Of a stretch of DNA of 64,000 bases, positions 3,382-54,030 are shown in pieces. Origin of the DNA: Massalongia carnosa (lineage: Eukaryota); NCBI GenBank assembly GCA_965645245.1, contig OZ287084.1, positions 1,240,001 through 1,304,000 of the forward strand, written 5' to 3'. Both the position numbers and the translations under genes were made by a program. The notes beneath the pieces were generated by a model. It was not told the DNA's origin and did not search any database. It saw nothing but the letters and a program-made list of their open reading frames with translations. The first letter of the stretch is position 1, and each line of letters starts with the position of its first letter.

Positions 3382-3570
3382 TTAGCTCTCTTTGCCTTTT
3401 GGCTTAGATCAAGTGTAGTATCTGTTCTTTTCAGTTTAATCTCTGAAATTTTCCTACGGGAAAAATCAATGATTAAATCTATTTTTGTACTTCGTGAAGC
3501 ATCCTCTGGGCTTGCCTACGATGCTTCTCACTGTGTCCCCGGTCTTACACTACCGCCGGGCGACGCGAAA
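3382..3570 (+). ncRNA. U2: U2 spliceosomal snRNA
   Basis: 5' region AGCTCTCTTTGCCTTTTGGCTTAGATCAAGTGTAGTATCTGTTCTTTTCAGTTTAATCTCTGAAA matches the conserved U2 5' domain. Branch-point recognition GTAGTA at 3415-3420, Sm site ATTTTTG at 3481-3487, then two 3' stem-loops (SLIII ~3495-3531, SLIV ~3533-3567). Ends are approximate. Confidence 0.95.
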
Positions 3571-4203
3571 TCTATTTTTCATCAATATCTTCAGCTTGTC
3601 TGAAGTTTTGAAGAAGAACAGAAAAACAATCATGCAGGTATCACTATTCGGCACGTAATGTATGTATATGTTTGTGTGCGTTTGGTGCAGTGGAGTAGTT
3701 TGGAAATCCTTCACGTTCGACCATGCTCCCATCAAAGATAATCTATCAAAGTACTCACAAAACCTAGTGAAATGGGAGAGATCACCTCGTACTATTTGCC
3801 CCAACTATCAACATATTCGCGATACATGATGGCGATACATAACCCCCTACTAGTTGACGTCAAACGTAGGTCAATAATGACAGCGAGATTGTTCCTGAGG
3901 AGTTTGTGTGTTATGAAGAGTCAACTACCCACTGGAATATGGCACTGAGCGATTAGACTACAATAATTATTAGATTACAACATACAGATGAGAAAGCGTT
4001 TTACTACATCTAACTGTTCACACTAAGGATGGTTTCCAAGAGGCAACCCCCCCAAAGTTGATGACTGCGTGTGTAAAGTGTAACTAACTCGTTCATCTGG
4101 GACTACATGCAGACTATCATCATAGCAACCCAATTTAGTGACAGGTTGTCGACGATATTCTTTATGTTTTCAACCGTTCCAACCACTCCTTTCAACTGAC
4201 TGC

Positions 4204-13279: not shown

Positions 13280-13728
13280 GGCCGCAATTGGGGCATCAAG
13301 GAGTGTAGGGGAACTCTCATGAGCCCTGCCTGGCTCTTGTCGTCCTATTAGCGGCTCGAGTAGAATTAGGATTCTAAATCCGAGAGCTTTCCCGACAAAT
13401 CAAGAGTTTGAATGGAATGAAGCATCATCTTCCATCAACATTGCAGAAATGAGAGAGGTAGCTGACGTGTTGCTGCTTCAGATATTCAACAATATTCAAC
13501 AACTTTCTCGCGTTTTAAGGCAGAATCTTATCTTATCTAGATTAATTAACTACCCGAGCTTCGGGACCTAGTTAAAGAATATTGAAGATGCATAACTAAC
13601 GAGCCTTGAAAGCCTCTGCTTTAACATCACATCTCAGGGAAAGCTTTTATTTGAGTAATGCTATTATGAGAGTATTCTAAATAACTCAATGTTGTTGGAT
13701 CCTTAAGGGCAGATGTTTGACAGCCACA

Positions 13729-15087
13729 ATGGCCCGCCAAAGCATCTTCAAAACGGCCCAGTCTTGCCTACTCTACTCAAGAGCAGAGCTTCCTCCAAAG
13801 CAAAAGCAAGGGTTAAGACTTTACAATGTACAATCCAATGAAGCTGCGATCGCCAAACTACCGGGCATCAACCTTGGAGCACTATCAGTTACTAGAACAA
13901 CAACTCCTAAGAATCTGCTCCCCCCCGAAGAACTCGTATTTGGGAGAAACTTTACAGGTATACTTGGACATCTTTAAAATTAAACACTGAACTGAGGCGT
14001 CACTCCCCAGACCATATGCTATCGATAGAATGGACCGCCTTGGACGGATGGCTCCCACCCCGAATAACTCCTTATCAAAACCTCAGTCTTGACCCCGCTA
14101 CCTGCGTCTTCCATTACGCGTTTGAATGCTTCGAGGGCATGAAAGCCTATAAGAACAAAGATAATCAAATAAGCTTGTTTAGGCCAGATAAAAACATGGC
14201 TCGCCTGAATAAGTCCGCCGCACGCATTGCTCTCCCCACCTTCGAACCAAATTCCTTCCTCCAACTAATCTCTAAGTTCGTCTCAATGGAAGAACGCTTC
14301 ATCCCTACGTGAGATCATTCCCAACCCCTTTTTCCTCCAAACCCTCATTAATTCCCCCGCTTCCAGCGCCCGCGGCTACTCCCTCTACCTCCGTCCAACT
14401 TTAATCGGCACACAACGCACTCTCGGCGTTGGGCCCCCTGGCTCCGCCCTCCTCTACCTTATCGCCTCCCCTGTGGGTCCCTACTACCCAACTGGCTTCC
14501 GCGCCATCTCCCTTGAAGCGACCGACTATGCTGTGCGTGCTTGGCCTGGTGGCGTTGGCGACAAGAAACTTGGCGCTAATTACGCCCCTTGCATTGTGCC
14601 GCAGCTCGAGGCCGCCAAGCGCGGCTTTCACCAGAACCTGTGGCTATTTGGTGAGGAGCAGTTTGTCACCGAGGTCGGAACGATGAATTTCTTTGCCGCA
14701 GTGCGGGCCAAAGAGAGCGCGGGTGGCAAGAAACAGCTCTTAACTGCGCCGCTCGACGGGACTATTTTAGAGGGCGTTACGAGAACGACGATTCTGGAGC
14801 TAGCGAGGGAGAGACTAGTGCCTGAGGGGTGGGATGTAGTGGAGCGCAAATTCACGATGGGAGAGCTGGCCGAGGCCGAGGCCGAGGGGCGACTGATGGA
14901 GGCGTTCGGGGCCGGCACCGCCGCGGTGGTGAGCCCCGTGCGGAAAATCAGTTGGAAAGGTAAACTTGTGGATTGTGGACTGAAAGAGGCCGGGCAGGAG
15001 GCTGGGGAAGTGGCGAGTCGGATGAAGAACTGGATTGAAGGGATCCAGTACGGGGACGAGGAGCATGAGTGGTGTCATCGAGTCTAA
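13729..15087 (+). CDS. BAT1: Branched-chain amino acid aminotransferase, probably mitochondrial
   Basis: Three exons. Motifs [47 protein letters not shown]-binding lysine in [23 protein letters not shown] and [11 protein letters not shown]. Start codon is uncertain. Confidence 0.93.
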
Positions 15088-16010
15088 AAATGCTCAGGTC
15101 GAGAGATGATGCATGAACGCATATAGATGATATCAAGCGCATATAGAAGAAAAAAAACCCCTACTTACATACTTTTATGTTAAAAAAGCCGGGGAAAGCT
15201 GATGTACGCATATCATATCCACATCCCACGAAATAAGCAACAGCATCTATCTGCATGCCATCCTTTTTATTTCTCTGAAAACCATCAATCAGAGCGACAT
15301 TCGACCTCCTCCCCTCTCCCATCACCTCCTCCCAGTGAGGGACCCTCATCTTTTCGAAGGCCTCTACGACCTAGTATTTAGATAGATCCATCCTTTCACA
15401 TACACATATATATACACCTAGATGTTTGTGTAGGTAAGTATGTAAATGCTCGGGTAGATTAGGGGGTTGGTTTGATCGGCCACTTTTTGTTCCATGGAAT
15501 CTACTCTACTCTACCTCGACGACGACGACGATATATATAGGATGGATGACCGGGTTTCCCGAGGGGTAGGTAGAAATTTGGTCAGTGGGTGGGGATATGG
15601 AGTTCTGTAGATAGGTATTGTGCTTATCGCTGTTGGGGGTGCTACGGGTTAAAGTATGCACCCTTCTGGGGTTCTCTTTCTCTCTCTCTACCCAACTGGA
15701 CCGTGTTCTTTTTCAAGTTATTTATATTGGGCAGAATTATCCATGTGGTGATTGTATTTCTATTTGTATGTTTTTTTTTGGAAAATAAAAACGATGAAAA
15801 CTACACGAATAAAAAAGTATCAAATAAATTGGCCCTGGTTAGCCATGCGATGAATATAAATTTTCAAAGTTTGTCTGAGCGAAATGCTCCAGCTCTCAAG
15901 GCCATTCCTCCTTCCATTCCTTCGGGAACCCTAGAGCGGATTTGAGCTTCAGTTAGTAATTCGAAAACCCGGACAAGGGCGGCAAAAGTACTAAAATGGT
16001 AGAAGAAAGC

Positions 16011-16881
16011 AAGCCCCAGCCAGTTCTGTCTGGGTGTCTGCCATCCTGTTTCTTGCCCAAAGGACCCCCGATCATCCTTATTTCAATAAGACTCTTTCTA
16101 TAGAACGAGCTGTTCTACAAACCTCTTTCTACCCATGCCCGCGCCTGCGTTTGGGTGAGAGTCTCCAATCTCCGTTTTTTTGTGCAACATTCCCATTAGC
16201 CTGATTTCTTACATTCGAATCAGCACTCACTGCAGCTAAGACCAACAGCAGTTTCTGTCTGGGTGTCGGCCACCCTCTTCGTAGTTGTGATAGAACGATC
16301 TCCTGTATCTGGGATCATATCTTTGCCCTGGGAATGGTACGGAGGACAGATAGCAGAAGCCAATTCGATGGTGTTGCCAACCTTCGCCATAGGGATTCAA
16401 ACAGTATGGTATTCCCAAAAATACAGTTTTTCTGAGAGACCTACAGGCAGAGAAAGGCAATAACAGGTATTATTTGGTTGTCTTCATCTTTTCCTTTTGC
16501 CTCTGTGAAAGGCCATCGTCTATCAGTTGAATATAACCCTTGCAAGTCAAGCTGATTTTGGATCTTCGTCCACTAAGCCCAGCAGTTGTTTCTGTCTGGG
16601 TGTCCGTTTGCCACCTGCTTGCCTATAAAAGACACCATCGGTCTCCTCATTTTCACTGATGCTCCGCGCAGATTATACGGACTTGATCTGCAACTACCCC
16701 CAAGGCCAGCGGGAGTTTCTGTCTGGGTGTCCTCCATCCTCTTAGCTTCGCATCATGGCGCTGTCCATCTAGTCCTGCCATAATAGCTTACATGACACCA
16801 TGCAAAATGGCGGCACCAGAGGTTTGTTACCAGGCACGCAAAGCCAGCGATCTTTTCTGTCTGGGTGTCCCCCACCCTCTT
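16011..16881. repeat. Array of ~40-bp direct repeats (core TTCTGTCTGGGTGTC) separated by unique spacers
   Basis: Exact 15-mer at 16024-16038, 16253-16267, 16590-16604, 16717-16731 and 16855-16869. Semi-conserved flanks AAG-N-CCAGC upstream and CCAYCCTCTT downstream. Confidence 0.9.
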
Positions 16882-17059
16882 ATCTCGGCTTATATTTGAA
16901 AGGGTGGATCGAATTAATTACGGTCCCTCCGTCATCCACGGTTCGTTCAATTTGGACTTTTATTGGGGGACCAGAACTATTTGTGATGATATCTGCCAGC
17001 TATGGTCTACGAAGACTTATGATTGAATAATACCGATCAATCGTCCGCTCATAGCCCTA

Positions 17060-18340
17060 TAGTTTCAAAAGGCTTTTAAACTCTTTGAATCAGAACAGTT
17101 TTTCTTCGCAATTCTTGACAAGCTGCTTAACCGCCAGGTCGGATGTTACATCGTCTGTTCCGTCGGCTATCTTAGTCCAGAGATCTCACAATAGATGCCT
17201 ATATAATATATTAGTTCAATGGCAAGAACTCATTTGATTAACACCGTCTCTCACCTCCTCAAGCTCTTCATGTAGCCATTACTTCTAAGCAGAAGCATTT
17301 TGCATCTTGCACGCATGTGCCTTAGCCAAAGCAATAAAATCACTTTGCTTTAAATCGGTCTCGACCTTCTTCAACTTTGCCATCTCGCATACTGATTGCT
17401 CTATCCAAGCATATGGACTCTCTAGCAGGGCTCCGCTTTTGATAAGCCTATATCTCACTGCAGGATAGTCCATAGAGATTTTTTCAGAGGGCCCCGTTTG
17501 CAAGCAGCGCTTGAGTGCCGCCGATAAAGCTAGTTCAATCGATCTCGTTACACCAATTGTTATAATTAGACGCTTATGGTTGACATTAGCCATGATATAT
17601 TCCATCCTCATGCCTTCTTCGTTGATAATATTTTCTACGGGAACCTTCACCTCTTCCAGCTCAATGAAGGTTCTGCCAGTAGTACTTTGCCCAGATGTTT
17701 CCCAGAAGCGCCAATCGACGATAATCAGGCGACAATCAGGTAGCGGAACGACTAAAAGAGACAGACAACTAGAACAAGAGGCGCGGACCACCATCGTTAG
17801 ATAGGCAGGATAGATTCTATTTGTGATCCAGCAATGTTAGCTGGAAAAAAAAAATGTCGCTTTGAATATATCTAAGCGCCATTTTTTCGAGCCATTGACG
17901 ATGCAGTGCTTTACTGCCGGGGTTATGGTAGCCGTAATTTGAATATTTGCAACGTTAGATCCAGCATTCAGTTCTGTGATAGCTATGCAGATCTTCTTCC
18001 TTCCGTCAATGGTTCAGGCCAGGGCCATTCTTTCAATCGCTTGCTACTGAGTTCATGTAAGGGAGGAAGGCCGAAACAAATCCCCATTAACAGCGAGGCA
18101 GAAGGATATGCCTTTCTAGCCGCACCATCTATTCATGAAGACATCAGCTAGTCACATCCTGAACGGTGTATACAGTACTCCGAAAGATCGAACCTTATGC
18201 ACATAGTTCCTATTCACCACTTTTACCATCTCATGCATTCTTAGAATTTTCAGCTACGTCGCTGGCAATGGTGTAGATAAGCTGAGGATAGGTATGGTAA
18301 GATCTATGAATTGGCTCTGGCACCATAGGGGAGAAGCGGG
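17060..18340 (-). pseudogene. Degenerate acyl-CoA dehydrogenase pseudogene
   Basis: Recognisable but decayed ACAD segments in broken frames: KKICIAITELNAGSNVANI (~17940-18000), IVNGSKKW (~17880-17905), TFIELEEVKVPVENIINEEG...NHKRL...AVRYRL (ORF 17285-17794) and DDVTSDLAVKQLVKN (~17110-17155). Boundaries are approximate. Confidence 0.8.
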
Positions 18341-21300
18341 GAAGGCGCGACGCTTGATAGTTAACACCAAAACTCGCTTGACAGGCGATTTTCACTAAAA
18401 AAATTTCCAATATGTTGCTTTGGAACCTTTTCTTAAATAACCATGCTTCAGTATAAAATATCATGAGTTTAAAATCGAATATAAAACAAGCTGCACTTAT
18501 GAAATCACAAGTTTGAAAAGCTTATTAAATAATCTGATGTTGTTTATCAGACTGCAAACATTGTAAAGTTTGGTGTTCGGTGACCAAGTAAGATGCTGCG
18601 GGAATAAATTAGGCCGTAAAGGCGAACCTAAGTATGTACTATGGCTTTCGAAGGGGATTATGATAAATTAATTGAAGCAAGAGGTTCGAGCGCTGCCGGT
18701 TGGTGAAATTTGCTAAGTTTTAAACCGATTTTCATAGTTCTTTCATGATGATGATGATGTATTCATACTTTCATATGTCACTGGCTGTAGGCTGGCTCAT
18801 GCGGGTAAAGCTATCTAAGTTATGTTATATGGAAAACCTTTTTCAGATGTAAATCATGTCCCTTGATACCTGTCCGATGTGACATCGGGTCGACGCCGAA
18901 CGAAAGAAGCAGAGCAAAAAGCGTGTGAGGACTGTGACGCCTTGTGAGATGAGAAGAAAAAGAAAAGTGAAACTACTGTTGATTGTACAACAGTGTGGAT
19001 GCCAGTGAGAATTGAATCAGTAGATCTGTTTTCATTAGTCAAGCAGTTAATATCATTAGACTTTTTGATGTTTCGATCAGTTGTTGATAGTTGTTCGTGC
19101 CAGCGATGCGAAACATCTGTTCTCTATTGTCGATAAGTCTACAGAACATAATTACGTGTTCTGAAGTTTTTCTGTGTCAGTCACATGAGCAGGCCGATGA
19201 GATGACGGCGGGGACCCGCCGCTGATAGGGGAAGTCAGCTAAACCGATCTTACCGATGGACCTTTTCTCCATTTTTTACCAGCGTGTGTATTTTTTGTCG
19301 TTTTTTGCTCAAATGGACTGATTGAGCTATGAAGGGTTCGATGAGGCAATTTTTTATATGCGCGCCACGAGTCGTTCTAGACTCTCAGTTGTCGTGCTTT
19401 AATTGTCTGCTCACAGTTCTTTTATCACTTGAGGATAGAATGTTCTTTTCTTGCCATGTTTTATCACTGTGAATCTTAATAGCCTGGCCAACTCAGATAC
19501 TTCTATGATCTAGAATAACAAGACCCGGTCAATGGTCTCGAAGAGCGCCATCAACCCAGGTTGTCAGCAGCAGAACTAATAACCCCATTATTAAGACCTC
19601 ATAAATGAGCTCCACAAAACTATGGTCAAGAATAATCTAGATCTATCAGTAGCGGCGAAATATAACTGTTGAAGGGGACCATGAAACGATGTCAGCGCTG
19701 TACTTCTTTGGCCAAATCATTCCCATGACCTCGTAAAGCAGAAAAAGCATCAATGATTCAAGCCCTCCTGCCAAACAGACTTTACTTCTTGACAATAGCC
19801 TAGCATGCTGTCACCTCGCCACTGAACCCAGTTCCCCGGGCGTCTCGCTCTAATCAATTTTCCCGTTGACGCGGTGCAGGTAGAAATATAAACCAACGAA
19901 GGGCCTTTCCTTCCCTAAGTATATGATTGATGCCACGGCAAAGAGCGCACCAAGGTTTGAGGTTTAAGAATTGTCGTATGACAAATCCAGAGAGAGTATT
20001 ATTTTGATCTCTGGACTGCCCATAATAAAACCAAGGTACATCGAGTTGCTACCTACTCTTCACGTACGTCGAGGCTCCATTGCTGCCGTCTTCCCCCGAT
20101 ATAATAGCTGTAAGTAGCATGGACTTTATATGTATCATTGCTGACGAGCTGACGAGTATAGCGAAGCCCAGGTAAATGGTAATAGGCCTCCAGAAGCTAG
20201 CCGTCCAAATGTGCGGATTTCTGCCCGTCTCGCCAAGTCTTATCCATGTCATCAAGTCGCGGTCACTTGCTGTAACAGTGATCTTTGGTCGACATGATAT
20301 TTGTAGAACAACACCCCAGCTTTCAATCGTTCAAGGTTGCATTTACCATGTCAACTAAAAAGACCACGCAGGTAACAGGAGTACTAATCATGGTGGCGAC
20401 TTTTCTTTTTCGACAGGAATAAAAAGCAGAGATATATCCGTTAAGATGCCCTTGTTGGATTGGGTGGAAAGAAGTGTAGCTGTAAGAACCCTAGGCAAAC
20501 TCCGCTAACTAGCAGGCAGGAAATCGCCGAGTGTTGCAAACCCCAAAGATGTTTTCTTCAATAAAGTTTTTGTTAAGCTAACATTCTATCACTAACAGCC
20601 ATGTAGTCTAGCTGTAATACCGACGCAAACGTAAACGCACACCATGTCAGGTCGTATACGCACACCACGCCGGTTCGAACCCCCGATGGGGCATTGACAT
20701 TTACTGACATACTAATTTGTAGGAGAGATGTACATTGGAGGAAACAGTTCGAACCCTCCCCTTAAGGAATGAAAATTAAGGGAAAAAGAACTGTTTCTTC
20801 CTTTGGAACTCTTTTGCCATTTTAGAGTAAATAAAATATAGAGAAAAATAGAAACTTGACAATTTAACGTTATTTCTCATGTATGTGGAAATTGGACATC
20901 TTTTCTTTGTTTATTTTTTCGCAGTCTCTTTATTCCCTTCATCTGTCCTTGCTCTTCCCTTTCTCGTTATATACTCGTCTTTCATCTCTCATCTATTCCC
21001 CTCCCCTGCCTTCTCTACTCATCTTCTCCTCTTCTTCCCCTAGACGTTGTGAGGATTGGATAACAACACTGTATTTTATATCTGCCAAGGCATGGAGCCG
21101 GTCAATCATAGTATAGTCAATGTAATGAAGCCTCCCCTGATAGATGTACAGAGTATAGAATAGCGCTTACTTATCTGTATTCATGTACAGAGGTAAGCTA
21201 AGATGAATAAATTAGATCACATCCTTCACACTGTACCACACTCAGTCCTCTTAGTTGTTGGATATCGTAGCAGATAACTTTGCGCGCCACAATATACAGA

Positions 21301-21825
21301 GCCTTCTTGCGGCATCGTAAAATAGATAACGCAAATAGATAACGCGGGCGGTGCAGCATATCAGCCTTTCATAGGATAGGAAACACCAGTTGTTGAAAGG
21401 TGACGTACCTGTGAACCTTTCGCCGCATACATCATGCATACTCGTATGATGACCCAGGTTAGAACCCTTGTTCGGGACGGACCTAATTTTTGGGAGTCGA
21501 TCTTACGTCATCGCCCAATCCAACCTAACTTAGGCATTCAATTAGGGGTCCCGACAACTCCTCGAGAGGAACAAGCGAGAAGTGGCGTCCCACCAGACCC
21601 AATCCAGGCTTCGCTCACAAGACCAAGCACAAACTGCAAGTTTACATACTTTCGCCTTTTCCCCTCTCCTCGTTTCCACTCCTAGAATAGAAGACTTCCA
21701 GACGACGACCAATGTCTCCACTTTGTTTGGAGGGCTGTAAGAGTGACTGCACGGCTGTTCGCAAGTGAGGAACTTTGGTACCGCAACTCCATGATTGTTA
21801 CTGTCTCTACTCATAGAAAGTCTCA

Positions 21826-25420: not shown

Positions 25421-27298
25421 GGTGAGCAATACCCAAGGTAAGCACAGGAGTGACAGAGAGGTACCTAGAGTATCATGGTCAATGGAGATTGATTGGGGTT
25501 GGGGGAGATATGTGACGCTTCTTAACTTGTTCAGAGTACTTTCTGTGCCTGTTGGAGTTATGTAGTTAGGTAGAGACGAGACTGCGGAGATACCTCTTAA
25601 ATGAGCTGTAGGGGTCAATTGACAGGGGAAGGAGAAAAGACCACAGCTATTTTGAAGCCGAGGAAAGAAAGGACAGAAGAGTTGGATAAGAAGGGTTTCT
25701 TTGGGGGGGGGTTCTACTGATATTTGTATCTGATGGGAGAGAATGAGAGTCCTGGAAGAGGTAGGCTTGACCAAGGTAGAAGGGGAACGATGTGACATCA
25801 GATACATGTACGTATTCCTGCAGAATATGTCACGGCTGGGGGATCCGTGTGGGCAGTAGATAATTAGGGCTAAATAGGCCCGGCTCTGGTTCTAGGATCA
25901 CGAGGATGACCTAACGGGGAAAGGTTAAAGCTGGAGATTGGATGCAGGAGCAGAAGCAGAAGCAGAAGACGATTATCGTCACGCGAACGTCATACGAACT
26001 GTCACAATGTATACACTATTAAGAACGGCAAGGGTACCTGATCATATAATCACTAAGCTCGCCTACGTATCGGTTCGCTCATCATACCCATCATATTCGG
26101 TACTCTGTACTGGAAGAGCAAAAGAGGAACGAAATATACCCACATCACTATGCGTACGAAGTACTATTACCCAAACCTCCAATGGAGAAACAAACACCCG
26201 AACTGTCGTGGGATTCAATAGGCGCCTATTGTAGTTATTGATCTGCTGATGAAAAAGCCGGAGAAGAGGAGGCGGCGGCGCTTTCCCATCAGTCACTCAA
26301 TCATTCAGTCACGAGCTGTAGACAATGTCTGGACAAACGAAGAATGCCCTCACACGAATGGTTTCATTTGCTGTCATCCAAAGCTGGACCCCCCCATGAC
26401 TGGTTAGGAATCCAATAACCTGACCTTTGCGATGAAGTTCTCAAGTAGTTTGCAGTAAACAGCCAATATTGTGAACGCCAATGTCAAAACGAGGAGAACC
26501 GGCGTCTGCGTTGCGTTCCTCCTGTGGAGCGATTCGAACAGACTAGTTGGATTAATACACAATATTAGGGCCAGATATCTGTACAAGTTATAATCCGGTA
26601 TTATCATGGATGAAGCATCCTACTTGACAATACTCTTAGGTGGCGGGCCTACAATTCATTCGGCATGTGCTGCACAACGTATGCACCTGTTGCCTATGAT
26701 CAAGCCCCTTTTCATGCCGCGCACGAACAACCCAACCGCATCAGGCTCGCGAAAACGTATCTCACGATGAATCAACATTCCATCTCGATGCACTGCGAAG
26801 ACTTTGCCAGTGGTAGCTGTTGAAGGGTGTTTGGGTTAGTTTTCCATCTTGTCATGGTTCCAGGGCTTCACAGAGGCATATTTTACAAGTTGCACCGTTG
26901 TACCCTGTGCTTTAAGCACGATAATACTACTCTGTACACTAGATGAAGAAAGAGTTCATGTTGCTGGAAAGGACAAGGCTGATGATAACCCCGACAGTCT
27001 AGTGATGAGAGACAAGCGAAGATAATCACCACATCAACCACTAGCGGTATTTATCTCATCAACGCCTAACGTCTGTACCGCTTCGTCTGAGATCATGATG
27101 GCTGGATTGCGCGCACTGATCAGAAAATCCATACCGCCTCTGGCAAAGCTCCCCACAACAGCTTGTTCCTCGTGCTTTCCTATGCTCTTGCCTACCAGGA
27201 ACCTATTCTCCATTCATAACCTTGCATCACCGTTAAGCTTATGTGCGCATTGCGGTCGGACGGTCCAGAGAAGCTGCTCTAGATAGGCCCTTCACAGA

Positions 27299-41937: not shown

Positions 41938-43857
41938 CCAAAACACTAAACCCCAACCGAGTCAGGGTCTAGTGCCCGACGGTCTACTGACACATACAGT
42001 CTACTGACGCACTTTTCCCATTTTCACTACCATTTCTGCTACAAATCGAGGACAACAACGGTTATGCAGAAACTGATTGATTATGACGCTGGTAAAATAG
42101 CTTCGCTTGTCTGGGCATCGATCTGGCGATTCTTTTATACCTTTTGTCCAGGGCAATCTGCTTCTTTTCAGCAGCTAGTGTGGCACGTTCATAGGCCAGT
42201 CTGGTCTTTTCCACCTCGTTCTGACAACGTTTCGAGGTTTTGGCCCGTACATCTCCTACAGTTATGACCCCTCCCTTCTGGGCGACCTTACCATCCAATT
42301 TTCTACGGGCCGCCTTCGCGATGGACTGTTGTTGACTGGCTCGAAGGTCCCGCTCAATAATCTGACGTGCATGCGCATTGGAAATAGAGCCCTTCACAAA
42401 TCGATTCACATGACAATCCCATTCATTGTCCAGCACGTTGTATTTCTTCAAACTCATTCGAAGGTGTAAGCCATATTCAACCACCTCTTTAGTCGTGCGG
42501 GGCGTTCTGGCGAGCAGAGGGGCTGACAAAGGTGGGGGGGTAGCAAGTCTCCGAGTTTGAATTTCCTCCAGCTTTCGAATTACCACATTGGGGTTATAAG
42601 GCACCAGACCCGTGTTTCTGAATGACGATAATATGGTAGATGAGGTGAATGTTTGATTTCGCATGCGCTGAAAAATGGACAAAAATCCAGTTTGTCGAAA
42701 TCTGCCCCTCCGAGTCGCACCATCTCGTCAATGCCTTCGGAATGATAATTTTTGAACGGCTGAAAACATCCTACATCCAATGGCTGAGTGAGATGTGTTG
42801 AATGAGGAGGCAAACGAAACAATTCAATGTGATTTCGTTTGGCATATGTAAAAAACTCATATGTCATATGAGATCCATACCCGTCCATGATCAACATACG
42901 CCAGGCCCCTACCTGACCCTTTCGACTGTGTTTATCGAAATGTTTCAACCAATCAATAGCCAAATCATCATTGGAATAGCCGGTAGGACTAGTAGTCAAC
43001 AAAACATCGTCATTCAGATCGTTTTGTTGTGTCCACTTTTCGAGAATCAAAACCCCCGCTATAATCACCATGGGGGGAATGTTTCGCCCCCCAGCACTAA
43101 TACACTCACACGAGGTGACATATTCTCTATTATCTGGATCTGTCAATAGCAAGGGCTTTCTGGAGTGAGTTGATATAACCCAATGAGCCCTGTCACAGCC
43201 AATTCGAAAGCCCATTTCATCCATGTTCCAAACGTCCTCGTCCGCTATTCCCCGCGTCTTTCGCGCAGTTCGATATGCTTCAAAATACTCGAGCCTGTCC
43301 TTTGCATTGTGCGCGTGTTTTCGCTCAGCGGCCAGAGGTTTGTGTTTTCGCTTGAAAAATTGAGGATGACGATTGAGGAAACGTTTGGTCCAGGCCTCGC
43401 TGACGTGAGGGGGGGGGATGGAGGCGTCTAAATGAGCTTCTCTTAGTAGATAATTAGCAGCCCCCCGAACCATTGAAAACCTGGCTGATTGTTCGGCTTG
43501 ATCGAGCATCACAATATATTCACAAAGGGCCAATTCTTGTTCATCAGATAAGGCCTTGTTGGGGCCAGATCGACCGATGCGCGAACCCCCTCCAGCAAGT
43601 CGTCTTTGAAGCGTACGAATGTCGACATCGAAATCAAATGGCTACTGCGCGTATACTTCGAAATTCACCCGTGTTCCACGCGTTTATAGCATCGACAATT
43701 TGATCCTCCTTATTAGAATATGAGTTAGGCATGGTGGTGGTAGATGAACGACGTGGTGAAAATGGTAGTGAAAATGGGAAAAGTGCGTCAGTAGACTGTA
43801 TGCGTCAGTTGACCGTCGGGCACTAGACCCTGACTCGGTTGGGGTTTAGTGTTTTGG
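41938..43857. mobile_element. pogo/Fot1-type (Tc1/mariner superfamily) DNA transposon with long inverted repeats
   Basis: Inverted repeats 41938-42035 and 43760-43857 (98 bp, 2 mismatches) flank a DDE_1-type transposase. An inner TA|CAGT...ACTG|TA boundary lies at 41995-41997 and 43798-43800. Confidence 0.95.
42062..43732 (-). pseudogene. pogo/Fot1 transposase (HTH + CENP-B-like HTH + DDE_1) with two frameshifts
   Basis: ATG at 43732 (MPNSYSNKEDQI). +1 frameshift at 43636-43638 and -1 at 42681-42685. Catalytic aspartates intact in VWNMDEMGF, LIMDGYGSH and LPPHSTHLTQPLDVGCF; downstream SSFRNTGLVPYNP. Confidence 0.9.
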
Positions 43858-52509: not shown

Positions 52510-54030
52510 ATGGTGAATGCTCAATCCTCGACAACGGATGAATCCCAACCTGATCTATTTCGAGAACGCGCTGTACAGACAAAACAATCGCACTCTTCGC
52601 GTCGTGGGACTGCTCGATGTTTTTCAAGAATCCCACCGTTGCGCTTTTCTTGGCTCCAAATTGCAGGGGATCGGCTTAGACTCTCGCTCGTTAGGATCTA
52701 CTGCGGAAGGAGGCAAGGAAAAGGGATGTAGGCTTGACAGGGTACGATGAGGGTCGTGAAGGCGAAGGCGAAAGCGCGTGAACGAACGGTTGTGCGGCAT
52801 AACAGAGTATGGCTTGAGATTTGATGTTAGTTATTTAAACAGCTTAGCCCATATTATGCTTCGGAATACATGCACACCCCAACATTTACTGTCCATTCCC
52901 CACCTGCGTGATGTCGTACCGTTAGGAAGTACAGAGTACTCTGTAGGTATTCCACACTGAGTACCTAGATATATAGGTAATAGAACCCATAAAAATCAGG
53001 AGGTTGGATCGGTTTTTGATCACATCATATACGAATATCCGATAGATACCTTTGGGCGTTTCTCTCCACAAGCAAAAGAAATCCTCCAGAAAAGGATGTT
53101 CGTATCCGCGTACTCGGGTTCTGCAGGTCCGCCAAAGGGTGTCATGCAGGGCAGGCAAGGCAGCGAGTCAGAATCCTCAACTCAACTCATGGCCGATCGC
53201 ACGCTTGGCTAGTGGATCGAGCCCCCGCCAGAGTAGAGTAGTGGATGGACGAGTGGACGGAAGTGGGACATTGTGGCTCGGGGGGGGGTGAACCGAAAGG
53301 ACAGATATTCATATGCACAGCAGAACCGCTAGATTCGTCAAGTGGCAAGATGAAAACGTGTGTTTTGCAGTTGAATACCGAGTAGCTGTCGGAATGAAGT
53401 AGGCAGTTCTACCGAGTACTCTGTATACATCTCCAATCAAAGTGTGTTGTGTGGGATTGCCACGCTGTCATTGGCCAAGGGGGCAGTTTGACCACTTGTT
53501 CGGTTCTGCTCCTCCCCTTCCCTTCCCTTCCCTTCCCTCTCAGAGCTGTCGCGACCCCTACAATTCTCGGTTTTCTTCATCAGACCTTGAGAAGCTTTCG
53601 GGGAACAGCCGGAGAATAATCCGCCTTCATCACATGTTTCCCTGTCGAAGTGCAACGCATGTGAACTTCTCAGCGTATTCATCCCTGGTACCTCGAAACG
53701 TCCCTTCCGCCTTCCACCTTTCACCCATTTTCCCTCCGCTCAGCCGAAAGCTGAGCCCCTCGCATCGCCATCTCTTCTATCGTTCACGACCGGAAATCTA
53801 CAGCTGTTACTGTTCCAGTCAAACTTTGAGAAAATCTTGCTCGAAGACCGGTAATCTGATCATAGTCCTCGAGGCAACCGTCAAAGGGTCGTCGGCTCAG
53901 GTGTCTCCACTACCAGATCGACCAAGTCGAGAGGTCCGTTAACATCCCACTTCGGCATCCTACAGGGAATTAATCTTCCTTCCTACCCGTCCACATTACA
54001 GAAATACTTGGAACTGTTTCTTTGCCCCTA

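What the first reader, a model, noticed from the sequence alone, without database searches (positions are those of the whole stretch)
16011..16881. CRISPR-like repeat-spacer array in a fungal intergenic region: invariant 15-mer plus conserved hairpin
Seen: five exact copies of TTCTGTCTGGGTGTC in the same orientation (starts 16024, 16253, 16590, 16717, 16855; gaps 229, 337, 127, 138 bp) in a ~40-bp consensus AAG-N-CCAGC-N-TTCTGTCTGGGTGTC-N-CCAYCCTCTT, while the spacers look mutually unrelated. Every copy can fold the same stem: GGGTG-TCTGC-CATCC, GGGTG-TCGGC-CACCC, GGGTG-TCCGTTTGC-CACCT, GGGTG-TCCTC-CATCC and GGGTG-TCCCC-CACCC. The loops vary, and the stem variants are tolerated as G-U pairs only on the + strand. 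An ordinary tandem duplication would decay evenly rather than keep an invariant core between divergent spacers. Inference: iterated functional sites, for example RNA processing sites in a polycistronic ncRNA, recombination or cassette-integration sites, or protein-binding iterons. No Cas, recombinase or reverse transcriptase ORF is adjacent in this window, so this is not called CRISPR.
Basis: partly seen in the sequence, partly recalled or inferred. Interest (0 to 1): 0.85.

Follow-up and report, generated by a model that had tools for sequence, protein, structure and literature searches.

The report
Five conserved motifs between fungal genes
A roughly 45-base sequence with a perfectly conserved 15-base centre occurs five times, separated by unrelated DNA, in a gene-free gap of a fungus found in lichen samples; it is real and probably a set of docking sites for one binding factor, but it is not CRISPR-like and its function is unproven.

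Summary
TTCTGTCTGGGTGTC occurs exactly five times, all on the + strand, at the stated coordinates. There is no sixth copy in 64 kb even with 2 mismatches (0.08 expected). Each copy sits in a 40-46-nt three-block unit. The stretches between units are unrelated to each other and to the rest of the window.

The "conserved hairpin" is a 5-bp stem with no compensatory change. It is the predicted fold in 2 of 5 copies and is no more stable than shuffled sequence.

No CRISPR, cassette, snoRNA, tRNA, Rfam, coding or transposon-end feature was found. A relative about 1% diverged carries the same five units and four spacers with no indel, so no spacer turnover is seen.

A run of 15 invariant columns inside partly diverged flanks is not even decay (p about 1e-5), so selection on the core is likely.

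Best reading, at low confidence: iterated docking sites for one sequence-specific factor, lying between a transaminase gene and a dead acyl-CoA dehydrogenase gene that converge. No genome, distant relative or RNA data could be reached. Whether the sites are read as DNA or RNA, and what they do, stays open.

The parts
16011..16050 (+). Unit 1 (AAG .. CCAGC .. 15-mer at 16024-16038 .. CCATCC TGTT). It is 3 nt shorter than the other units between CCAGC and the core.
16238..16279 (+). Unit 2 (AAG .. CCAAC .. 15-mer at 16253-16267 .. CCACCC TCTT).
16575..16620 (+). Unit 3 (AAG .. CCAGC .. 15-mer at 16590-16604 .. CCACCT GCTT). The 3' block is shifted by 4 nt.
16702..16743 (+). Unit 4 (AAG .. CCAGC .. 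15-mer at 16717-16731 .. CCATCC TCTT).
16841..16881 (+). Unit 5 (AAG CCAGC .. 15-mer at 16855-16869 .. CCACCC TCTT).
16051..16840 (.). Four unique stretches between the units: 16051-16237, 16280-16574, 16621-16701 and 16744-16840. They are not alignable to each other or to the window. They show no coding signal, no Rfam or tRNA hit and no stable fold.

Best explanation
The five units are copies of one composite cis-element of about 45 bp. It has three blocks: CCAGC, a variable 3-6 nt, (T)TTCTGTCTGGGTGTC, a variable 2 nt, then CCAYCC(T)CTT. The copies arose by old local duplications, which explains the shared orientation. Purifying selection kept the blocks while the DNA between them drifted apart. 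Most likely they are iterated docking sites for one sequence-specific nucleic-acid-binding factor. I lean slightly to a reading on DNA, meaning a multi-domain DNA-binding protein that contacts a 15-16-bp core. Both neighbours point their 3' ends at the array, so an oriented barrier, terminator or boundary role fits better than an upstream activating sequence. Shown: the repeats exist, are unique in the window and are unevenly conserved, and the spacers are unrelated. Inferred: selection, binding by a factor, the DNA reading and the role.
For: Five exact cores against 0.08 expected. The three-block conservation has variable positions between blocks: the two bases after the core differ in every copy (TG, GG, CG, CT, CC), while the next block is kept. 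A run of 15 invariant columns among 21 invariant of 41 has p about 1e-5. The array region shows no coding signal above shuffles: the best 48-codon score is 9.0, reached by 30 of 200 shuffles, against 13.9 for the transaminase exon region. No stable or covarying RNA structure was found. No known RNA family matched. Location: the Aminotran_4 gene ends at 15087 on the + strand, and the acyl-CoA dehydrogenase relic on the - strand ends near 17087. Several oriented protein-binding repeats within under 1 kb are a known architecture for polar barriers. S. pombe RTS1 is an 859-bp fragment whose region B, about 450 bp, holds four repeat motifs bound by the Myb-domain protein Rtf1 (PMC10473836, passages). 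Multiple Sal boxes sit downstream of mammalian rRNA genes (PMC5368702, passages).
Against: No binding protein, no functional readout and no conservation beyond a relative about 1% diverged. Within the array that relative has 3 substitutions, all in spacers. This is what chance gives (p 0.45), so it says nothing about the units. Fifteen invariant positions in all five copies is more than most transcription factors demand. The whole 15941-16910 stretch, spacers included, has fewer differences from the relative than the non-coding flanks: 3 in 970 nt against 16 in 853 and 3 in 176 (Fisher p 0.005-0.03 by comparison, boundaries chosen after the fact). It is not lower than the dead gene next to it (p 0.15). 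If real, this would fit a transcribed unit better than isolated DNA sites. The C/T differences in the 3' block keep a G-U stem on the + strand only. The blocks are spaced differently in units 1 and 3. Sequence likeness to known barrier motifs was not tested.
Confidence: 0.35

Rival explanations
1. RNA-level modules. The region from about 15.9 to 17.0 kb is an unannotated + strand non-coding transcript. The five units are its repeated functional modules: docking sites for an RNA-binding protein or a trans-acting RNA, or punctuation where a precursor is cut. This would resemble the repeat units of long non-coding RNAs such as the Xist A-repeat or NORAD (both recalled, not checked).
For: All five units share one strand. 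The C/T variants keep G-U pairs on the + strand only. An invariant 15-mer is what pairing with a trans RNA would require. The whole stretch, spacers included, has few differences from the 1%-diverged relative (3 in 970 nt). A TATAAAT sits at 15855-15861, about 150 nt upstream of unit 1, after an A+T-rich stretch. This last point is my reading, not a test.
Against: Sliding 120-nt windows across the array give z from -2.4 to +1.7 on both strands. There is no covariation. No Rfam match passed in 14500-18500 at E up to 10; the best of four weak rows scored 17.9 bits against a gathering score of 49.5. No spacer has a paired C-box and D-box pattern. The + strand is pyrimidine-rich here, as it is over the neighbouring minus-strand gene relic.
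Confidence: 0.28
2. Mobile-element or recombination sites. The units are termini or subterminal binding sites of a transposon family, or target sites where unrelated short pieces were inserted one after another, so the 'spacers' are inserts.
For: Unrelated stretches of varied length sit between like-oriented conserved sites. Each unit holds short inverted repeats, CCAG/CTGG and GGGTG/CAYCC. An intact-looking pogo/Fot1-type transposon in the same window shows that mobile DNA is active in this genome.
Against: No transposase, integrase, recombinase or reverse transcriptase domain lies in 15100-21800 (73 six-frame pieces). The pogo element's 98-nt terminal repeats are unrelated to the unit. Only these five copies occur in 64 kb. 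The relative shows no gain or loss of a unit or spacer. Unit flanks show scattered mismatches, not sharp copy boundaries. A genome-wide count could not be made.
Confidence: 0.1
3. Neutral relic. An old tandem duplication is decaying without function, and the identical cores are chance or the result of short-tract gene conversion.
For: Local duplication explains the shared orientation. Weak 12-13-nt similarities between spacers 1 and 2 and between spacers 3 and 4 could be remnants (families D12 and D10). No function has been shown.
Against: Flanking unit positions differ by 17-35% between copies, yet none of the 75 core positions (15 x 5) has changed. A run of 15 invariant columns has p about 1e-5. 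Conserved blocks are separated by fully variable positions. Conversion tracts limited to 15 nt would be unusual (my own knowledge).
Confidence: 0.1
4. Coding. The units encode a conserved peptide segment in small genes or exons, for example the + frame that reads SVWVS, or the - frame that reads KR..DTQTE.
For: The + frame reading SVWVS is open for 40-87 codons around every unit. The length difference in unit 1 is 3 nt. The base after the core varies as a synonymous third position (TCT, TCG, TCC) in that frame.
Against: Three of the four gaps between cores are not multiples of 3. No frame scores above shuffles. Only one canonical intron candidate lies inside the array span, on the + strand. 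No Pfam match in any of the 17 six-frame pieces that overlap 15941-16910. In 5.8 billion protein clusters, one ORF found only its own counterpart from the 1%-diverged relative and the other found nothing. The synonymous positions inside the core are also invariant.
Confidence: 0.04
5. A CRISPR-like adaptive array or an integron-like cassette array.
For: Only the outward pattern of repeat, unrelated spacer, repeat.
Against: See the membership tests. This is a eukaryotic locus. The units are only 65-82% alike. Spacer lengths vary about threefold. No associated genes are present. No match to phage records was found, and matches of the 15-mer in viral contigs (37) and metagenome contigs (20) are all single. 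Spacers are the same in a diverged lineage.
Confidence: 0.02

Closest known systems
RTS1 replication termination site of Schizosaccharomyces pombe (region B repeats bound by the Myb-domain protein Rtf1)
   Same: A handful of like-oriented repeat motifs within under 1 kb of non-coding DNA. RTS1 is an 859-bp fragment with four motifs in about 450 bp; here five units span 871 bp. The proposed function depends on orientation. (PMC10473836, passages.)
   Different: No sequence comparison was made. No Rtf1/Reb1-type protein is known or was tested here. The locus is not a mating-type locus. The spacers are longer. Fork or transcription arrest is pure inference.
Sal-box and Ter terminator arrays downstream of rRNA genes (TTF-I / Reb1)
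   Same: Multiple copies of one protein-binding box behind the 3' end of a transcription unit, acting on transcription and on forks. (PMC5368702, passages; PMC6089867, abstract start in the listing.)
   Different: This locus is not rDNA. The neighbouring genes are RNA polymerase II genes. Box sequences were not compared.
Homotypic clusters of transcription-factor sites (fungal upstream activating sequences; recalled, not checked)
   Same: Several copies of one motif at irregular spacing in non-coding DNA.
   Different: The array faces two 3' ends, not a promoter. The units are long (about 45 bp) with a 15-bp invariant core, and all share one orientation.
Repeat modules of long non-coding RNAs (Xist A-repeat, NORAD units; recalled, not checked)
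   Same: A short conserved core repeated between diverged spacers after internal duplication.
   Different: No transcript is known here. No structure is supported. No such case in a filamentous fungus is known to me.
CRISPR arrays and integron attC cassette arrays
   Same: Direct repeats alternate with unrelated sequence.
   Different: See the membership tests: repeat identity, spacer-length regularity, associated genes, host domain and turnover all fail.

Membership tests
CRISPR array | Near-identical full-length repeats (about 23-55 nt) | tested here: not met
   Only 15 nt (16 in four copies) are identical. The units are 65-82% alike over 34 nt.
CRISPR array | Spacers of nearly uniform length | tested here: not met
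   Between 15-mers: 214, 322, 112 and 123 nt.
CRISPR array | cas genes nearby; prokaryotic or viral host | tested here: not met
   No such domain in 73 six-frame pieces of 15100-21800, nor in the 47 ORFs scanned elsewhere. The window has a U2 snRNA and intron-bearing genes.
CRISPR array | Spacer turnover between lineages, or spacers matching mobile DNA | tested here: not met
   A contig about 1% diverged is colinear, with 3 substitutions and no indel in 15941-16910. No match in 50,697 phage records.
Integron cassette array (attC) | Integrase gene and cassettes that carry ORFs | tested here: not met
   No integrase or recombinase domain. No coding signal above shuffles.
Tandem repeat / minisatellite | Head-to-tail units alignable over their whole length | tested here: not met
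   Tandem Repeats Finder gives no row in the array. Spacer-to-spacer alignments are at shuffle level: 1 of 30 at p 0.01.
Box C/D or H/ACA snoRNA cluster | C and D boxes (or hairpin-hinge-hairpin-tail) in each unit; match to an Rfam family | tested here: not met
   The strict C-box pattern occurs once in 15100-17300 on the + strand (16983, outside the array) and not at all on the - strand. No snoRNA family appears at E up to 10. No stable folds in the spacers. Complementarity to rRNA was not testable, because no rRNA sequence is held.
Structured RNA motif (conserved hairpin) | Pairs kept through compensatory change; fold better than shuffles | tested here: not met
   0 pairs with changes on both sides. 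It is the minimum-energy fold in 2 of 5 copies, with z from -2.3 to +1.8.
Transposon terminus or subterminal repeats | Copies elsewhere in the genome, at element ends, next to a transposase | tested here: inconclusive
   No other copy in 64 kb. The pogo-type element at 41938-43857 has unrelated termini. A genome-wide count was impossible because no genome is held.
Polar barrier or terminator arrays (RTS1, Ter, Sal box) | Several like-oriented copies of a protein-binding motif within about 1 kb of non-coding DNA | tested here: met
   Five units on one strand in 871 bp.
Polar barrier or terminator arrays (RTS1, Ter, Sal box) | Bound by a Myb/SANT protein of the Reb1/Rtf1/TTF-I type; orientation-dependent arrest of forks or polymerases | not testable with these tools
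   This needs binding assays and 2D gels or run-on assays.

The most novel reading that the evidence does not exclude
The locus is a punctuated non-coding precursor. A + strand transcript of about 1 kb would be cut or bound at five identical 15-nt signals, releasing or displaying four to five different short RNAs that are themselves under constraint. That would be a eukaryotic 'repeat-spacer' RNA operon of a kind not described in fungi. The only hints are the single-strand orientation, the G-U-compatible variants, and the low divergence of the whole stretch, spacers included, from a 1%-diverged relative. Nothing excludes it, because no RNA data could be reached.
Probability: 0.07. Interest if true: 0.75.

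Novelty: new member of a known kind. Interest (0 to 1): 0.3.

Why it matters
If the units are selected docking sites, this is a clean natural example of a long composite cis-element iterated in a fungal gene-free gap. It would point to an unknown sequence-specific factor in a poorly studied group, the fungi found in lichens. It might also be a barrier or boundary element outside rDNA or mating-type loci. As it stands, it is a well-defined local oddity seen in one species lineage, with no expression, binding or deep-conservation evidence. Its value is as a lead for anyone who has the genome and RNA data of this fungus.

Tried and rejected
- **Genome-wide count:** no whole genome is held for the window.
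- **Expression:** no RNA holder was listed among 9 runs, and all four runs laid were contigs. Nothing can be said on transcription.
- **Relatives elsewhere:**
  - The core plus CCAYC pattern found 20 metagenome contigs, each with a single match and no second core within 2 mismatches.
  - The 15-mer found 37 viral contigs, all single matches.
  - blastn of 15950-16950 against phage records gave no match.
- **Protein space:** the translated ORF 16773-17027 found only a 76-aa counterpart at 97% identity on a 14,995-nt contig, the same length as the relative's contig. ORF 16200-16460 found nothing.
- **Papers:** the 15-mer, its reverse complement and 13-nt parts occur in 3 papers, none of which is about fungi by title and abstract.
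- **Earlier findings of this scan:** none for this genome or sequence. Two word matches concern bacterial repeats and did not bear on this locus.
- **Pairing of the core with the window's U2 snRNA:** no better than shuffles.
- **Helical phasing of the gaps:** it depends on the period chosen, so I dropped it.
- **snoRNA boxes, tRNA, canonical introns:** only one candidate intron lies inside the array span, on the + strand.
- **Codon-usage scan:** isolated 96-nt windows reach +4 to +7.5 in changing frames, with at most three in a row in one frame. The calibrated test is at shuffle level.
- **Divergence inside the array:** the 3 substitutions in the relative all fall in spacers, but chance gives that with p 0.45. 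It is no evidence that the units are better kept between isolates.
- **Recalled resemblance:** the reverse complement of the core resembles the budding-yeast Rap1 site and a neighbouring CT-box. This comes from memory and was not tested. That DNA-binding mode of Rap1 is, as far as I know, not expected outside budding yeasts.

Full report
**What is there**

The sequence of 15400-17600 and a pattern search confirm five exact copies of TTCTGTCTGGGTGTC. All are on the + strand, at 16024, 16253, 16590, 16717 and 16855. With up to 2 mismatches there is no further copy on either strand of the 64-kb window. Shuffles give 0.08 matches on average, and 0 of 100 shuffles reached 5.

Each copy is the centre of a 40-46-nt unit built from these blocks:
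- AAG
- 0-2 nt
- CCAGC (CCAAC in unit 2)
- 3 or 6 variable nt
- (T)TTCTGTCTGGGTGTC
- 2 variable nt (6 in unit 3)
- CCAYCC, then CTCTT or a near variant

A profile built from the five units finds only these five in the window (E 3e-15 to 4e-13; the next row has E 3.1). Tandem Repeats Finder sees no array here.

The stretches between units do not align to one another. Of 30 strand-wise local alignments among four spacers and two flanks, each against 200 shuffles, one reached p 0.01. They also do not align to anything else in the window.

**Is the pattern more than decay of a duplication?**

In the MAFFT alignment of the units, 21 of 41 non-gap columns are invariant, and 15 of them form one uninterrupted run. 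If the invariant columns were placed at random, a run that long would have p about 1e-5.

The blocks are separated by positions that differ in every copy. The two bases after the core read TG, GG, CG, CT and CC. Mismatches in the flanks are scattered rather than ending at sharp copy boundaries. This is the signature of constraint on a composite element. It does not fit even decay, and it does not fit recent copying of pieces of varied length.

**Surroundings**

To the left, a class IV aminotransferase gene (Aminotran_4, E 8e-21) runs on the + strand and ends at 15087.

To the right lies a decayed acyl-CoA dehydrogenase gene on the - strand:
- middle-domain profile positions 1-36 of 97, in 17840-18013
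- C-terminal-domain positions 4-100 of 150, in 17288-17836
- a last recognisable piece in another frame, down to about 17087

Both neighbours therefore point their 3' ends at the array.

The stretch 15100-21800 is poor in ORFs. Its 73 six-frame pieces of 45 codons or more give no Pfam family at E 0.01 or better other than those two dehydrogenase fragments. There is no Cas, recombinase, integrase, transposase or reverse transcriptase domain.

Elsewhere the window holds ordinary fungal housekeeping genes, one U2 snRNA and one pogo/Fot1-type transposon 26 kb away. That transposon's termini are unrelated to the unit.

**Tests of specific readings**

- **RNA families:** nothing in 14500-18500 passes at E up to 10. 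All four rows listed are far below their gathering scores. One of them overlaps unit 5 on the - strand (17.4 bits against 53.5). No tRNA was found.
- **snoRNA cluster:** the strict C-box pattern occurs once in 15100-17300, outside the array. No spacer has a C-box and D-box pair on either strand.
- **Hairpin:**
  - The five 5-bp stems exist, but the 5' arm is part of the invariant core.
  - No pair changes on both sides, and the shuffle control cannot discriminate.
  - The same holds for an alternative CCAG/CTGG stem.
The units fold no better than shuffles on either strand (+ strand z -2.27, 0.10, -1.33, +1.75, -1.18).
  - Sliding 120-nt windows across the array stay between z -2.4 and +1.7.
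- **Coding:**
  - Every frame is open across some units, and the + frame reading SVWVS is open for 40-87 codons around each.
  - Three of the four gaps are not multiples of three.
  - Codon-usage scores are positive only in isolated windows in changing frames.
  - The best 48-codon window scores 9.0, which 30 of 200 shuffles match. The transaminase exon region scores 13.9 and the non-coding left gap 10.1.
  - Only one canonical intron candidate lies inside the array span, on the + strand.
  - Two translated ORFs found nothing in the large protein collection except the counterpart from a close relative.

**Comparison between lineages**

No whole genome is held. Five of the nine runs listed hold the stretch. 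I laid four of them:
- X1 carries the whole stretch without a difference and may be the source of the window.
- X3 is also identical where it was laid.
- X5 is identical over the parts it covers, apart from at most one difference that the table does not show.
- X4, labelled lichen metagenome, spans 13600-18400 in one contig at depth 26, with 41 substitutions and 9 gap letters (6 indel events are listed).

In X4 all five units and all four spacers are present and colinear. Within 15941-16910 it has 3 substitutions (16140, 16429, 16757) and no indel. So there is no spacer turnover at this distance.

All three substitutions fall in spacers, but chance gives that with p 0.45.

Event density by region in the X4 comparison:

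| Region | Coordinates | Events per 100 nt |
|---|---|---|
| Array stretch | 15941-16910 | 0.31 |
| Non-coding stretch to the left | 15088-15940 | 1.88 |
| Non-coding stretch to the right | 16911-17086 | 1.70 |
| Transaminase gene | 13729-15087 | 1.03 |
| Dead dehydrogenase gene | 17087-18013 | 0.76 |

The array stretch has fewer events than the left gap (Fisher one-sided p 0.0009) and than all other sequence (p 0.011). It is not lower than the dehydrogenase relic (p 0.15). One X4 difference is not shown in the table; if it lay in the array these p values roughly double or triple. I also chose the boundaries after seeing the data. This is a weak hint that the whole 1 kb, spacers included, is constrained.

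Searches for the motif in metagenome contigs (20 single matches), viral contigs (37 single matches), phage records (none) and the literature gave nothing related.

**What it most likely is**

The evidence supports a selected, locally duplicated composite element and rejects the named families. Its architecture is a long invariant core, two partly conserved side blocks at nearly fixed spacing, one orientation and irregular gaps. That is what iterated docking sites for one sequence-specific factor look like.

I cannot tell whether the sites are read as DNA or as + strand RNA.
- For DNA: no RNA structure or family, and the strictness of the core.
- For RNA: the G-U-compatible variants, the single strand, and the hint of constraint on the spacers.

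I lean slightly to DNA (0.35 against 0.28). Both neighbours converge on the array, so an upstream activating role lacks a target. An oriented barrier, terminator or boundary role fits the place.

The nearest architectural precedents:
- S. pombe RTS1: an 859-bp fragment whose region B, about 450 bp, holds four repeat motifs bound by the Myb-domain protein Rtf1 and acts in one direction only (PMC10473836, passages).
- The Reb1 Ter sites and TTF-I Sal boxes behind rRNA genes (PMC5368702, passages).

This is a likeness of architecture only. I compared no sequences and tested no binding.

**Verdict**

The feature is real, statistically solid and unexplained. It is not CRISPR-like, and the hairpin is not supported. 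It is seen in one species lineage, and no expression or deep-conservation data could be reached. Interest is modest. It becomes interesting only if a transcript with ends at the units, or a specific binding protein, is found.

Noticed in passing
window 17087-18013 (- strand): Decayed acyl-CoA dehydrogenase gene. Fragments of the middle and C-terminal domains lie in different frames with stops between them. It sits tail to tail with the aminotransferase gene, which also acts on branched-chain amino acids.
   Followed up: partly
window 41938-43857: Intact-looking pogo/Fot1-type DNA transposon. It has 98-nt terminal inverted repeats that are 98% complementary, each with an internal direct sub-repeat. 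A 353-codon ORF on the - strand carries DDE_1 and HTH_Tnp_Tc5 domains.
   Followed up: partly
window 3382-3574 (+ strand): U2 spliceosomal RNA gene (Rfam 159.7 bits, full length).
   Followed up: no
window 15580-15700: A stretch 300 nt upstream of the array folds markedly better than shuffles on both strands in a 120-nt window (z -3.7 and -3.6). The signal is weaker (z -1.8) for 161 nt. It ends in a CT-rich tract at 15672-15692.
   Followed up: partly
window 52929-52945, with partial copies at 26100, 47150, 47328 and 53414: A palindromic motif (GTACAGAGTACTCTGTA) recurs in several intergenic places. It may be a transcription-factor site.
   Followed up: no
window 274, 23889 and 34814 (same strand): The 13-mer TTTCCATCTTCCA occurs three times, far apart.
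   Followed up: no
window 13600-18400: A contig from a run labelled lichen metagenome matches this stretch at about 99% identity. The window therefore probably comes from a lichen-associated, likely lichen-forming, fungus.
   Followed up: partly
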